From the NCBI RefSeq assembly GCF_006345805.1, contig NW_021829250.1, forward strand, positions 1 through 6,721: a DNA stretch of 6,721 bases, in the 5' to 3' direction. Source of the DNA: Octopus sinensis. Taxonomy: Eukaryota. The position numbers and the translations under genes were made by a program. The stretch's first letter is position 1. Each line of letters opens with the position of its first letter. The notes below the pieces were generated by a model that worked only from the letters and a program-made list of their open reading frames with translations, searched no databases and was not told where the DNA came from. Below, in pieces: positions 1-6,721 of this stretch.

Positions 1-22
1 TATATAGTTATTTCCCTTACAA

Positions 23-51
23 ACCCGAGCAACGCCGGGCGATACTGCTAG
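23..51 (+). mobile_element. Helitron 3' terminus (GC-rich hairpin + CTAG|T); element body extends left out of the window
   Basis: ACCCGAGCAACGCCGGGCGATACTGCTAG followed by T52. The imperfect hairpin CCCG(A)GC-AAC-GCCGGG lies a few nt before CTAG (48-51). It is near-identical to the reverse complement of the termini at 5142-5170 and 5534-5562. Confidence 0.8.
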
Positions 52-411
52 TATATATATATATATAAAGGCAAGGAATTCTGTCTTCTCTGTGATTTTA
101 AACTATTTTTCATTATTTTTTGTAAAAATCCCCCAGTAAACACGGTTATAGAGCGTGCATACCGAAGTAAACATTGGCAAAAACACACCTTTAGTTCCTA
201 TAAGTAATCTCTATCATTATATATAATTTAAAAATTAATTTTCTTTTTATATTTAACATTCACTGAAAAAATATCCCTACTCTTTCTATAGACTACTTCT
301 GACGTTATATCATATAACGTTTTTTCAAACAATATTAATAGCGTTCAGTAAATCACTATACATATCCATCATTTTCTGTTAAAATCTCTTATTGACGAGT
401 TTCATTTCTTC

Positions 412-500
412 ACTTCCCTGAAGAGAAGATTACATTGTTTTACACCATTTTATTCCTTTGGAATAATATCAGCGAAATCTTCGAAACATGTGTCGGAAGT
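412..500 (+). ncRNA. Type I hammerhead ribozyme motif with minimal stem III (Penelope-like element type)
   Basis: Stem I is ACTTCC(412-417)/GGAAGT(495-500). Core CTGAAGA at 418-424. Stem II is GAAGATT(425-431)/AATCTTC(476-482). GAAA at 483-486. Stem III is AC-ATGT-GT, and the cleavage triplet is GTC (492-494). All conserved core nucleotides are present. Confidence 0.85.
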
Positions 501-533
501 AGAAGTATTTGAATTATACCTGCGTTAAACTCC

Positions 534-571
<38 letters not shown>

Positions 572-625
572 CTATATATATATAATATATCTATATATAT
601 ATAGATTTATATAGATATATATATA
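534..625. repeat. Imperfect (TA)n microsatellite
   Basis: TA dinucleotide run with a few interruptions. Shorter TA runs occur at 52-67 and 779-797. Confidence 0.95.
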
Positions 626-1948: not shown

Positions 1949-2331
1949 GGAGCACTCCGTCAGTTGCGACGATGAGGGTCCCAGCTGATACGATCAACGG
2001 AACAGCTTGCTCGTGATATTAACGTGCAAGTGGCTGAGCACTCCACAGACACGTGTACCCTTAACATAGTCCTCGGGGAGATTCAGCGTGACACAGAGTG
2101 TGACAAGGCTGGCCCTTTTGAAATACAGGTACAACAGAAACAGGAAGTAAGAGTGAGAGAGAAAGTTGTGGTGAAAGAGTACAGCAGGGATCACCACCAT
2201 CCCCTGCCGGAGCCTCGTGGAGCTTTAGGTGTTTTCACTCAATAAACACACACAACGCCCGGTCTGGGAATCGAAACCGCGATCCTGCGACCGCGAGTCC
2301 GCTGCCCTAACCACTGGGCCATTGCGCCTCC
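1949..2331 (-). mobile_element. Apparently full-length tRNA-derived SINE (family A)
   Basis: Minus strand starts GGAGGCGCAATGGCCCAGTGGTTAGGGCAGCGGACTCGCGG, with A box TGGCCCAGTGG and B box GGTTTCGATTCCC. A GC-richer body follows and ends ...GACGGAGTGCTCC next to a TA run. It resembles octopus tRNA-derived SINEs from memory; the family name is not confirmed. Confidence 0.85.
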
Positions 2332-2999
2332 ACTGATGAAAGAGTACAGCAGGGTTCACCACCATCTCCTGCCGGAGCCTCGTGGAGCCTTAGGTGTTTT
2401 CGCTCAATAAACACACACAACGCCCGGTCTGGGAATCGAAACCGCGATCCTCCGACAGCGAGTCCGCTGCCCTAACCACTGGGCCATTGCGCCTCCACTG
2501 GTGAAAGAGTACAGCAGGGTTCACCACCATCCCCTGCCGGAGCCTCGTGGAGCTTTAGGTGTTTTCGCTCAATAAACACTCACACAACGCCCGGTCTGGG
2601 AATCGAAACCGCGATCCTCCGACCGCGAGTCCGCTGCCCTAACCACTGGGCCATTGCGCCTCCACTGGTGAAAGAGTACAGCAGGGTTCACCACCATCCC
2701 CTGCCGGAGCCTCGTGGAGCTTTTAGGTGTTTTCGCGCTCAATAAACACACACAACGCCCGGTCTGGGAATCGAAACCGCGATCCTCCGACCGCGAGTCC
2801 GCTGCCCTAACCACTGGGCCATTGCGCCTCCACTGGTGAAAGAGTACAGCAGGGTTCACCACCATCCCCTGCCGGAGCCTCGTGGAGCTTTTAGGTGTTT
2901 TCGCGCTCAATAAACACTCACAACGCCCGGTCTGGGAATCGAAACCGCGATCCTCCGACCGCGAGTCCGCTGCCCTAACCACTGGGCCATTGCGCCTCC
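2169..2999 (-). repeat. Five tandem 165-168 bp copies of the SINE A 5' region (tRNA head + adjacent segment)
   Basis: Units at 2169-2333, 2334-2498, 2499-2665, 2666-2833 and 2834-2999. Each has intact A and B boxes, and the units differ at only a few positions. Confidence 0.95.
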
Positions 3000-3037
3000 A
3001 AAGATGTACAATATGAGTAAGGAGATAATATTTATAC

Positions 3038-3189
3038 TTTTCTATGAAAATAAATTCTTTTGGAACCCAATTCTCGTTTGAATTTTCAATGATTTTCTCT
3101 TTCTGGAACCATGATGTAGAGCTCGTCCCCGTTCCATTGAAGGTTATGACGTAGTCATTCTTTTGTTTCATTCTCACTCGAAATTCCAC
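3038..3189 (-). CDS. Internal coding exon (152 nt) of an uncharacterised protein: VEFRVRMKQKNDYVITFNGTGTSSTSWFQKEKIIENSNENWVPKEFIFIE
   Basis: Acceptor ctttctattttcag|GTG at 3190/3189, and likely donor GAAAA|gtataa at 3038/3037, which is weaker. The frame is open in non-repetitive sequence, and the phase-0 start matches the phase-0 end of exon 6718-6627. Confidence 0.8.
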
Positions 3190-3261
3190 CTGAAAATAGA
3201 AAGTTGACTCCGATCAGTAAAGAATCTAAGGGAGTGGGGAAGGATAGACTTGTATATATTG

Positions 3262-4940
3262 CTTTATTGCCCACAAGGGGCTAAACATAGAGGGGACAAA
3301 CAAGGCCAGACAAAGGGATCAAGTCGATTACATCGACCCCAGTGCGTAACTGGTACTTTATTTATCGACCTCGGAGGAATTTGAGCTCAGAACGTAACGA
3401 CAGACGAAATACCTATTTCTTTACTACCCACAAGGGGCTAAACATAGAGGGGACAAACAAGGACAAACAAAGGGATCAAGTCGATTACATCGACCCCAGT
3501 GCGTAACTGGTACTTTATTTATCGACCTCGGAGGAATTTGAGCTCAGAACACAACGACAGACGAAATACCAATTTCTTTACTAACCACAAGGGTCCAAAC
3601 ATAGAGGGGACAAACAAGGACAGCCAAAGGGATCAAGTCGATTACATCGACCCCAGTGCGTAACTGGTACTTTATTTATCGACCCCGAAAGGATGAAGAC
3701 AAGTCGACCTCGGAGGAATTTGAACTCAGAACGTAGCGGCAGACGAAATACCTATTTCTTTACTAACCACAGGGGGCTAAACATAGAGGGGACAAACAAG
3801 GACAGACAAACGGATCAAGTCGATTACATCGACCCCAGTGCGTAACTGGTACTTTATTTATCGACCCCGAAAGGATGAAAGGCAAAGTCGACCTCGGAGG
3901 AATTTGAACTCAGAACGTAGCGGCAGACGAAATACCTATTTCTTTACTAACCACAGGGGGCTAAACATAGAGGGGACAAACAAGGACAGCCAAAGGGATC
4001 AAGTCGATTACATCGACCCCAGTGCGTACTGGTACTTTATTTATCGACCCCGAGAAGGAGAAAGGCAAGTCGACCTCGGAGGAATTTGAACTCAGAACGT
4101 AGCGGCAGACGAAATACCTATTTCTTTACTAACCACAGGGGGCTAAACATAGAGGGGACAACAAGGACAGACAAACTGATCAAGTCGATTACATCGACCC
4201 CAGTGCGTAGCTGGTACTTTATTTATCGACTCCGAAAGGATGAAAGGCAAGTCGACCTCGAGGAATTTGAACTCAGAACGTAGCGGCACCGCAAATACCT
4301 ATTTCTTTACTACTCACAAGGGCTAAACATAGAGGGGACAAACAGGACAAACAAAGGATCAAGTCGATTATATCGACCCCAGTGCGTAACTGGTACTTTA
4401 TTTATCGACCCCGAAAGGATGAAAGGCAAAGTCGACCTCGGAGGAATTTGACTTCAGAACGTAGCGGCAGACCTGTTTCTTTACTACCCACAAGGGGCTA
4501 AACATAGAGGGGACAAACAAAGACAGACATAAGTATTAAGTCGATTACATCGACCCCAGTGCGTAACTGGTACTTTATTTATCGACCCCGAAAGGATGAA
4601 AGACAAGGTCGACCTCGGCGGAATTTGAACTCAGAACGTAACAACAGACGAAATACCTATTTCATTACTACCCACAAGGGGCTAAACACAGAGGGGACAA
4701 ACAAGGACAAACAAACGGATCAAGTCGATTACATCGACCCCAGTGCGTAACTGGTACTTTATTTATCGACCCCGAAAGGATGAAAGACAAGGTCGACCTC
4801 GGCGGAATTTGAACTCAGAACGTAACAACAGACGAAATACCTATTTCATTACTACCCACAAGGGGCTAAACACAGAGGGGACAAACAAGGACAAACAAAC
4901 GGCGGAATTTGAACTCAGAACGTAACGACAGACGAAATAC
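3262..4940 (-). mobile_element. Tandem array of 10 copies of a 5'-truncated SINE body (family B), full unit about 184 bp
   Basis: Units start at 3262, 3419, 3576, 3758, 3942, 4124, 4305, 4479, 4663 and 4847. On the minus strand most carry B box GAGTTCAAATTCC followed by GAGGTCGACTTTGCCTTTCATCCTTTCGGGGTCGATAAATAAAGTACCAG. From memory this resembles a conserved SINE central domain (Meta/MESC-like). No A box is seen in the units. Confidence 0.85.
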
Positions 4941-5018: not shown

Positions 5019-5141
5019 AAATTATACCCTACCGTCTAGTAAAAGATAGAACAGAGGGGATAATCTAATTATGGATATTGTATATAGGAAAGTAAGACAA
5101 GGTATCAAAATTTCAAATAAAATATTCAGATTTAGAAAATA

Positions 5142-5533
5142 CTAGCAGTATAACCCGGCGTTGCTCGGGTGTGCTTCGACCCTTTAGAAGTGGAATTTTT
5201 GAAAAGTAAAACCTTTGCATTATGTAGCTTGTTATTCTCTTTAGGTGAACATTTTTCTGGTTGAAATACACCGAAAAATGGCGACACAGCAGTCAAAAAA
5301 TCGTAAAAAAAAGGGATTTTCATAGAAAAAAAGCACCTTTTTTTATGTAAATAATTTTTTCGTCTTAACATGGTCAGATTTGAATCTTATCTTCTATGGA
5401 ATGAAGAGCAAGCCTTCTTCTATCATACTCTCAATTTTGGTCGACTTGCGTCGCAGGGTCTCGGAGGAGATAGTGTTAGTTGAAGGCTACCAAACCTTCC
5501 ACACACAGACATCTTCAGATTTATATATATAGA
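5142..5533 (-). mobile_element. Complete non-autonomous Helitron (392 bp)
   Basis: Minus strand begins TCTATATATATAAATCTGAAGATGTCTGTGTGTGG and ends ACCCGAGCAACGCCGGGTTATACTGCTAG|T. It has the 5' TC, the subterminal hairpin and the 3' CTAG. Confidence 0.85.
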
Positions 5534-6391
5534 CTAGCAGTATCGCTCGGCGTTGCTCGGGTGTGCTTCGACCCTTTAGAAGTGGAATTTGTGAAAAGTA
5601 AAACTTTTGCATTATGTAGCTTGTTATTCTCTTTAAGTGAACATTTTTCTGGTTGAAATACCCCGAAAAATGGTGACACAGCAGTCAAAAAATCGTAAAA
5701 AAATGGGATCTTCATAGAAAAAAGAAGCACCTTTTTTTATGTAAATAATTTTTTGGTCTTAACATGGTCAGATTTGAGTTTTTTTTCTTCTACGGAAGGA
5801 AGAGCAAGCCTTCTTCTATCATACACTCAATTTTGGTCAGCTTGCGCCGCAGGGTTTCGGAGGAGATAGTGTTAGTTGAAGGCTACCAAACCTGCCACAC
5901 ACACACAGACAACTCCAGCTTTATATATAGTAACAAATAGAGATTTTCATAGAAAAAAAGCACCTTTTTGATGTAAATCATTTTTGGTGTTAACATGGTT
6001 CGATTTGAATTTCTTCTTCTACGGAATGAAGAGCAAGCCTTCTTCTATCATACTCTCAATTTTGGTCAACTTGCGCCGCAGGGTTTCGGAGGAGATAGTG
6101 TTAGTTGAAGGCTACCAAACCTGCCACACACACACAGACAACTCCAGCTTTATATATAGTAACAAATAGAGATTTTCATAGAAAAAAAGCACCTTTTTGA
6201 TGTAAATCATTTTTGGTGTTAACATTGTCCGATTTGAATTTTATCTTCTATGGAATGAAGAGCAAGCCTTCTTCTATCATACTCTCAATTTTGGTCAACT
6301 TGCGTCGTAGGGTTTCGGAGGAGATAGTGTTAGTTGAAGGCTACCAAACCTGCCACACACACACAGACAACTTCAGCTTTATATATATAGA
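5534..6391 (-). mobile_element. Non-autonomous Helitron of the same family with a triplicated 5' segment
   Basis: A|TCTATATATATAAAGCTGAAGTTGTCTGTGTGTG at 6392/6391, and 3' hairpin + CTAG at 5562-5534. The 5' segment of about 230 bp is repeated at 5696-5930, 5931-6159 and 6160-6391. Confidence 0.85.
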
Positions 6392-6626: not shown

Positions 6627-6718
6627 CTCTTCAATGGCCAAGTTGTCCCAGTTTAAATACAAAGGACTCCTTATAAATGAGTCTTCGGTCATCTCATACA
6701 CTTTCTCCCAGCTTGTAC
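6627..6718 (-). CDS. Coding exon (92 nt): (x)TSWEKVYEMTEDSFIRSPLYLNWDNLAIEE, spliced in frame to exon 3189-3038
   Basis: Donor GAAGAG|gtaatg at 6627/6626 and an open frame of 30 codons. A putative acceptor cag lies at 6721-6719, at the window edge, so the upstream boundary is unverified. Confidence 0.78.
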
Positions 6719-6721
6719 CTG

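What the first reader, a model, noticed from the sequence alone, without database searches (positions are those of the whole stretch)
408..505. Intact hammerhead ribozyme with an enlarged, structured loop II and a self-complementary stem III
Seen: complete core (CUGAAGA 418-424, GAAA 483-486, GUC 492-494) and a perfect 7-bp stem II. Stem I is 6 bp and can extend by CTTC(408-411)/GAAG(502-505) across a 1-nt bulge. Predicted cleavage is after C494. Loop II is 44 nt and contains its own hairpin TTATTCC-TTT-GGAATAA (450-466). Monomeric stem III has only 2 bp, but ACAUGUGU (486-493) pairs with a second copy over 8 bp, including two G-U pairs. Established: minimal type I hammerheads with palindromic stem III occur in Penelope-like retroelements and retrozymes and cleave best as dimers. 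Inference: this is the end of a Penelope-like or retrozyme-type element ending near 533 at a (TA)n tract. It is antisense to the host gene, so it would not cut that pre-mRNA.
Basis: partly seen in the sequence, partly recalled or inferred. Interest (0 to 1): 0.85.

Follow-up and report, generated by a model that had tools for sequence, protein, structure and literature searches.

The report
Long-armed hammerhead of octopus Penelope retrotransposons
This is a hammerhead ribozyme motif at the end of a broken copy of a very abundant Penelope-like jumping gene, a known pairing, but its helix II arm is unusually long, and the youngest copies of the family have drifted to a likely weaker catalytic core, which offers a natural test of whether these elements need self-cleavage.

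Summary
The motif is real: every stated coordinate checks, and 0 of 1000 shuffles give such a hit. Window 67-533 is a 5'-truncated copy of a high-copy Penelope-like element (PLE) between two (TA)n tracts. It holds the end of the GIY-YIG endonuclease frame, the 3' UTR and the hammerhead, all on one strand. A young intact relative has pLTR + 775-aa ORF + pLTR and an inverted copy. Its motifs place it in the Hydra clade, whose hammerheads are published, one from Octopus.

New here: the '44-nt loop II' is an extended, covarying helix II capped by a hairpin. Hydra-clade relatives elsewhere have loops of 3-11 nt. A long-spacer pattern matches 14,060 places in this genome against 27 for the control; only some are shown to be PLE-linked. 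Four nested subfamilies first keep the fold by compensatory change. The youngest, ORF-intact one then acquires U4C, a G.U closing pair and a shorter helix I.

The window copy appears to be a neutrally decaying passenger. Cleavage is untested. Verdict: new variant of a known kind.

The parts
52..66 (.). (TA)n tract at the left junction (target microsatellite)
   Evidence: sequence; homology to other copies starts at 67
67..533 (+). 5'-truncated copy of a Hydra-clade Penelope-like element, oldest sampled subfamily (A); 15 private differences from the subfamily majority
67..207 (+). last ~46 codons of the GIY-YIG endonuclease frame (CxxC kept, CxH mutated in this copy) and stop at 205-207
208..407 (+). 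3' UTR, part of the pseudo-LTR
408..417 (+). helix I 5' strand: proximal 412-417 (pairs 495-500), distal 408-410 (pairs 503-505)
   Evidence: compensatory 416/496 and 408/505
418..424 (+). catalytic core C3-A9 (CUGAAGA); U4 is C in the youngest subfamilies
425..482 (+). extended helix II: 7 bp (425-431/476-482), purine mismatch 432/475, 5 bp (433-437/470-474), asymmetric internal loop, apical hairpin 450-466
483..494 (+). G12-A14, self-complementary helix III (486-493) and N17; predicted cut after 494
495..533 (+). helix I 3' strand and the 39 nt up to the first of two family 3' ends
534..625 (.). (TA)n tract at the right junction; many other copies go on here for ~160 nt (tail = 5' UTR of the next ORF)

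Best explanation
This is the type I hammerhead motif in the pseudo-LTR of a truncated Hydra-clade Penelope-like element, and it is predicted to cut tandem element transcripts weakly after C494, likely only as a dimer or with the element's protein. Shown: the element context, the same-strand link to the RT-endonuclease ORF, the position 207 nt after the stop codon and 255 nt before the next ATG in tandem copies, the extended helix II with covariation, and neutral decay of inserted subfamily-A copies. Inferred: two copies pair through the palindromic helix III into a double hammerhead and trim read-through or tandem RNA to ~2.9-kb units. Insertions are then primed about 40-50 or 200 nt downstream of the cut on uncut or re-ligated RNA, so each new copy carries a whole hammerhead. 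The window copy itself is likely an inert passenger.
For: Element: 44 DNA matches (40 others of full or partial length at 91-96%, from 3,084 candidates, 40 scored) and 17,152 protein candidates (150 scored). L045 has inverted copy + pLTR + 775-aa ORF + pLTR, its repeats 99.5-99.8% alike. Selection on the fold between master lineages: A to B has 11 substitutions, none in the core, no pair broken (P=0.048 with all helices, 0.10 with helices I-III only), and two compensatory pairs (P=0.034). Across 20 sequences, 8 of 13 helix II pairs change on both sides; covariation 0.234 against 0.085-0.145 for slid partners. Dimer: the active monomer fold has probability 0.0005-0.16 in 8 copies, and the double hammerhead lies within 0-3.6 kcal/mol of the dimer minimum in 7 of 8. 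Ends: 104 of 112 3' ends lie at +39..+52 or +197..+204 and none at the cut; 1 of 14 (TA)n junctions near the cut starts within 2 nt of it. Literature: PLE hammerheads cut weakly and as dimers (PMC4209133), and the Anolis one needs protein (PMC11167929).
Against: No cleavage was measured. Between subfamilies the hammerhead is not better conserved in sequence than the UTR beside it (19 of 98 against 27 of 197 positions, A vs C2). The youngest ORF-intact copies carry U4C, G10.1.U11.1 and a 5-bp helix I, so full catalysis may not be needed. RNAalifold recovers only helix II, not helix I or the apical hairpin, and the hairpin has 0 of 7 pairs changed on both sides. The P values are modest, sequences are related, and the structure was drawn from them. 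The end counts are biased because most loci were fetched with queries spanning the cut.
Confidence: 0.62

Rival explanations
1. Catalysis is being shed. The long helix II arm is the selected part, likely a binding platform for the RT-endonuclease or a host factor, and the core is now vestigial in the active lineage.
For: B to C2 puts 8 changes in 96 hammerhead positions against 11 in 338 upstream (Fisher p=0.045), among them U4C and loss of the conserved G10.1-C11.1 pair. Meanwhile the arm gains a 4-bp helix (443/466). C-type motifs stand at 254 places. Ribozyme mutants did not affect insertion in vitro in Anolis (PMC11167929), and Naiads lack canonical hammerheads (PMC8557442).
Against: The same lineage perfects the helix III palindrome and changes GUC to GUA, a triplet common in relatives. 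The other ten core positions stay. U4C lowers activity in vitro yet supports viroid infectivity (PMC3088659), and one unrelated locus (L087) has the same core with perfect stems.
Confidence: 0.22
2. The cut's main use is translation: it frees a 5'-OH RNA starting 255 nt before the ATG of the next tandem ORF, which would be translated without a cap.
For: Geometry. Self-cleavage drove cap-independent translation in fungal and plant reporters (PMC13725137, passages).
Against: Nothing here tests translation; a pLTR promoter would give capped RNA instead; the active lineage has the likely weaker core.
Confidence: 0.08
3. The window copy has been co-opted by the host, for example to process an antisense transcript of the minus-strand gene.
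For: It is one of only 5 of 21 sampled A copies with core and helices I-III intact, and it lies near likely host exons.
Against: Private changes in A copies fall equally on core, paired and other sites (0.039, 0.039, 0.036 per site), so about a quarter stay intact by chance. This copy has an ordinary 15 private differences.
Confidence: 0.03
4. It is a non-autonomous retrozyme of 170-400 nt tandem repeats.
For: Type I topology with a palindromic helix III, as in animal retrozymes (PMC7229834, passages).
Against: The upstream sequence is the endonuclease frame, and the repeat unit is 2,863 bp with an ORF.
Confidence: 0.02

Closest known systems
Hydra-clade PLEs and their hammerheads (Craig et al. 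2021, PMC8557442), including Hydra-1_Obim
   Same: Single ORF under 3 kb, DKT motif, C-terminal endonuclease with CxxC and CxH, (TA)n targets, sense-strand type I hammerhead after the ORF with a short palindromic helix III.
   Different: A different family: Hydra-1_Obim's protein start and hammerhead differ, and its motif stands separately at 17 places in this genome. Loop II is 3-10 nt in all 26 published Hydra rows against 41-44 nt here. The CxCX5C linker is lost, RWK reads RWL, and the tail is ~160 nt rather than 30-40.
Minimal PLE hammerheads (Cervera and De la Pena 2014, PMC4209133)
   Same: In pLTRs, helix II of 7-8 bp, G10.1-C11.1, palindromic helix III, thousands of scattered truncated copies, predicted dimer action.
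   Different: No unpaired base between positions 9 and 10.1; helix II continues to ~12 bp plus an apical domain; helix I has a distal extension.
PAc (Poseidon, Anolis) protein-assisted hammerhead (PMC11167929)
   Same: Two insertion 3' ends downstream of the cut, giving a tail; no ends at the cut site.
   Different: Other clade; there the ORF starts inside the ribozyme, here 255 nt after the cut.
Spike-moss PLE-X1 hammerheads (File S2 of PMC8557442)
   Same: Long loop 2 (about 29 and 35 nt): a precedent for enlarged loop II in PLEs.
   Different: Endonuclease-lacking, rDNA-targeted plant elements, flagged non-canonical; no homology tested.

Membership tests
Type I hammerhead ribozyme | Conserved core (C3UGA-N-GA, GAA, A15.1-U16.1, N17 not G) | tested here: met
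Type I hammerhead ribozyme | Three helices, ends in helix I, supported by covariation | tested here: met
   helix III is invariant in that alignment, partly by the choice of search pattern
Type I hammerhead ribozyme | Match to an Rfam hammerhead model | tested here: not met
   no hammerhead hit at E<=1; the long arm is the likely cause (inference)
Type I hammerhead ribozyme | Self-cleavage after N17 | not testable with these tools
   needs an in vitro assay or raw RNA reads
Type I hammerhead ribozyme | Loop I-loop II tertiary contact | not tested
   an internal loop in helix I and a purine mismatch in helix II are candidates only
EN+ Penelope-like element | Single ORF with RT and C-terminal GIY-YIG endonuclease | tested here: met
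   775-aa ORF with RT motifs shared with the published Hydra alignment. Pfam GIY-YIG only E=0.0046, under cut-off, on 1 of 4 fragments; no Pfam or PDB hit for the whole ORF
EN+ Penelope-like element | Partial-tandem pLTRs, inverted truncated copy, tail | tested here: met
EN+ Penelope-like element | Hammerhead within the pLTR | tested here: met
Hydra clade | DKT motif | tested here: met
Hydra clade | CxxC and CxH around the conserved E and N of the endonuclease | tested here: met
Hydra clade | (TA)n targets, unit under 3 kb | tested here: met
Hydra clade | RWK motif | tested here: inconclusive
   reads RWL
Hydra clade | CxCX5C linker zinc finger | tested here: not met
   present in the 9 homologues, replaced in this family and in L202, L204, L215; so a derived Hydra-like lineage, not a textbook member
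Hydra clade | Placement in a tree with the published reference proteins | not tested
   the tree used only proteins fetched here
Non-LTR retrozyme | Non-coding 170-400 nt tandem unit | tested here: not met

The most novel reading that the evidence does not exclude
Octopus Penelope-like elements have radiated with a long-armed hammerhead in over ten thousand copies. The arm has become a protein-binding module, and the youngest active lineage is shedding catalysis step by step: a ribozyme caught turning into a non-catalytic signal.
Probability: 0.2. Interest if true: 0.7.

Novelty: new variant of a known kind. Interest (0 to 1): 0.42.

Why it matters
Why PLEs carry hammerheads is open: Craig et al. 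(PMC8557442) call the function unclear and raise the possibility that they parasitise PLEs, and in Anolis the cut was dispensable for insertion in vitro (PMC11167929). This family gives an ordered natural series, from canonical core to U4C with weakened helices, ending in ORF-intact near-identical copies, so cleavage rate can be set against transposition success. The single copy in the window matters little.

Tried and rejected
Rfam scan: no hammerhead. Pfam and PDB profile searches of the whole ORF and its alignment: nothing informative. RNA: no RNA holder listed; four runs laid were contigs of guessed or unknown kind and cannot show ends, strand or level, so expression, cut ends and circles stay open. 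DNA around the two nearest outside proteins (P0001, P0002) could not be had, so whether they carry the long arm is unknown. A short-loop ancestor of this family was sought: of 20 loci one (L189) had family coding sequence and looks like a deletion derivative. The idea that the apical hairpin is a cUUCGg tetraloop was dropped: the pairing register gives a 3-nt loop. A pairing of the internal loop with helix III was looked at by eye and does not hold in subfamily C. A third host exon was sought by a recalled motif and not found; the two exons have no Pfam match. L021 folded poorly as the 'typical A' copy because of private changes; it is counted among the 8. Earlier scan notes: nothing.

Full report
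OBSERVATION. A type I descriptor gives this single hit in the window, and 0 of 1000 dinucleotide shuffles give any at either stringency. The minimum-energy fold of 400-512 holds helices I and II but not III (z -1.68). Rfam returns no hammerhead at E<=1.

THE ELEMENT. Window 260-533 draws 3,084 candidates in the 2.7-Gb own genome; 40 were scored, giving 44 matches at 91-100%. Homology runs from 67 to 533 between two (TA)n tracts. The frame starting at 61 reads the last residues of an endonuclease, and longer copies continue upstream into RT sequence. That endonuclease draws 17,152 candidates, 150 scored. I fetched 10 of those with long open frames. L045 shows the textbook layout: inverted truncated copy, upstream pLTR with hammerhead, a 775-aa ORF, downstream pLTR with hammerhead, the repeats 99.5-99.8% alike. 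The unit is 2,863 bp; the core lies 207 nt after the stop and the cut 255 nt before the next ATG.

CLADE. The ORF has 51 unnamed homologues at 27-40%. It shows DKT, the C-terminal CxxC/E/N/CxH pattern and (TA)n targets described for the Hydra clade, but has lost the CxCX5C linker. Pfam support is thin: GIY-YIG at E=0.0046 on 1 of 4 fragments, nothing on the whole ORF or in PDB. The published Hydra-1_Obim is another family; its hammerhead motif occurs 17 times here, which is the ground for calling the host an octopus (inference).

THE LONG ARM. All 26 Hydra-clade rows of the published table have loop 2 of 3-10 nt. Of 78 metagenome loci with Hydra-type ORFs (the best 80 of 271 were kept), 50 have a hammerhead, best loop 3-11 nt; some may belong to other inserted elements. 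None of the 78 has a long-spacer form. In the own genome, core + 40-70 nt + the window's helix III type matches 14,060 places (control 27), against 781 for 9-39 nt (control 23). These patterns fix helix III and can overlap, so they are not copy numbers. Of 31 sampled long-form loci, 5 have a Hydra-type endonuclease end within 700 nt upstream (my reading of the table; the script's 600-nt cut-off flagged 2, one of them weak). The rest are truncated or of other kinds and are unassigned. The 11 own-genome endonuclease fragments group with P0001 and P0002 at support 0.986 in a short-fragment tree of 86. In a 20-sequence alignment chosen from the related group, helix II extends to 13 columns, 8 with changes on both sides. 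Paired cells are 80% against 38-50% for slid partners, and 0 of 500 shuffles reach the covariation score. Relatedness and a structure drawn from the same sequences inflate this; two of five measures were not above shuffles. RNAalifold independently predicts 10 pairs of this arm and nothing else. The apical hairpin is conserved in sequence but has no double changes. A precedent exists: two spike-moss PLE hammerheads have loops of about 29 and 35 nt.

SUBFAMILY SERIES. 72 copies were aligned after dropping 11 re-fetched loci and partial copies. A tree on the part upstream of the ribozyme gives a ladder: A (21 copies, window included, 3.5% from the group majority), B (10, 2.6%), C1 (5, 0.7%), C2 (36, 0.7%). 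It is midpoint-rooted, and A and C were top hits, so ages are biased low; intact ORFs and identical copies on several contigs support C being youngest. Exact patterns count 46 A-type, 323 B-type and 254 C-type motifs. A to B: 11 substitutions, none in the core, none breaking a pair (P=0.048 all helices, 0.10 helices I-III). They include compensatory 416/496 and 408/505 (P=0.034 for two; 0.34 for one without the distal pairs), A.A to G.G at 432/475, and 443/466 forming a new helix. B to C2: U4C, GUC to GUA, a perfect helix III palindrome, G10.1.U11.1 and loss of the last helix I pair; 8 of 96 positions against 11 of 338 upstream (p=0.045). Intermediates suggest U4C came first (inference). Changes private to inserted A copies hit core, paired and other sites alike, and 5 of 21 remain intact, so the window copy's intactness needs no selection.

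MECHANISM. In 8 copies the cleavage-competent monomer has computed probability 0.0005-0.16 (window 0.023); the double hammerhead is within 0-3.6 kcal/mol of the dimer minimum in 7 of 8 (window 2.2). Insertion 3' ends fall at +39..+52 (38) or +197..+204 (66) of 112, none at the cut (biased by how loci were fetched). 46 matches at 14 places join (TA)n to the region just before the cut, and 1 starts within 2 nt of it. So productive templates carry an uncut or re-ligated ribozyme (inference). This fits weak, dimer- or protein-dependent processing (PMC4209133, PMC11167929), at 0.62. The rival, shedding of catalysis with the arm kept for binding, stands at 0.22; U4C lowers activity in vitro but supports viroid infectivity (PMC3088659).

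HOST CONTEXT. Two likely minus-strand exons with AG/GT borders lie at 6627-6719 and 3040-3189; the second has 32 matches in the genome. The element is opposite to them; an intronic position is not shown.

LITERATURE SEEN. PMC4209133: parts 1-2 of 4 of the text, no figures or supplements. Craig et al.: passages and the Hydra section of the preprint, passages of PMC8557442, part 2 of 59 of its supplement plus search hits. Passages only: PMC11167929, PMC3088659, PMC13725137, PMC13282606 (no mention of ribozyme or Hydra in its main text), PMC7229834. Six searches found no description of this long-armed octopus form. Subscription papers, Repbase, Dfam and the supplementary alignments of PMC4209133 were not seen and may hold it.

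VERDICT. Real motif, known association, new variant. Interest 0.42, carried by the family and not by this copy.

Noticed in passing
L045:4210-6534; L202, L204, L215: This lineage has replaced the CxCX5C linker zinc finger by a conserved cysteine-free motif yet still inserts in (TA)n, which cuts against the proposed link between that finger and microsatellite targeting.
   Followed up: partly
L045:6857-7022 and many copies: The optional tail is about 160 nt, against 30-40 bp described for other PLEs.
   Followed up: partly
L087:2168: A hammerhead with the same U4C core and perfect helices I and II, about 330 nt upstream of a Hydra-type ORF in a metagenome contig.
   Followed up: no
L200, L209, L217, L221-L230: Several other long-armed hammerhead families with unrelated arm sequences but the same helix III type; no Hydra-type coding sequence found close upstream for most.
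   Followed up: partly
L045:6500-7030, run X3: Contigs of one run guessed to be RNA show 18 A>G and 37 T>C places among 80 changes, as A-to-I editing of inverted copies would give; strain or species difference is not excluded.
   Followed up: no
window 6627-6719 and 3040-3189 (-): Two likely exons of an expanded gene family without a Pfam match; 32 matches in the genome.
   Followed up: partly
window 2169-3000, 3257-4902, 1391-1832, 5707-6387: Tandem arrays of 168, 157-184, 146 and 229 bp; the first two resemble octopus SINEs (recalled, not tested).
   Followed up: no
window 1-52 (-), 5140-5170, 5533-5565: Repeated end motif with a short inverted repeat next to (TA)n, resembling Helitron-derived elements (recalled); also found in L005, L009, L026.
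   Followed up: no
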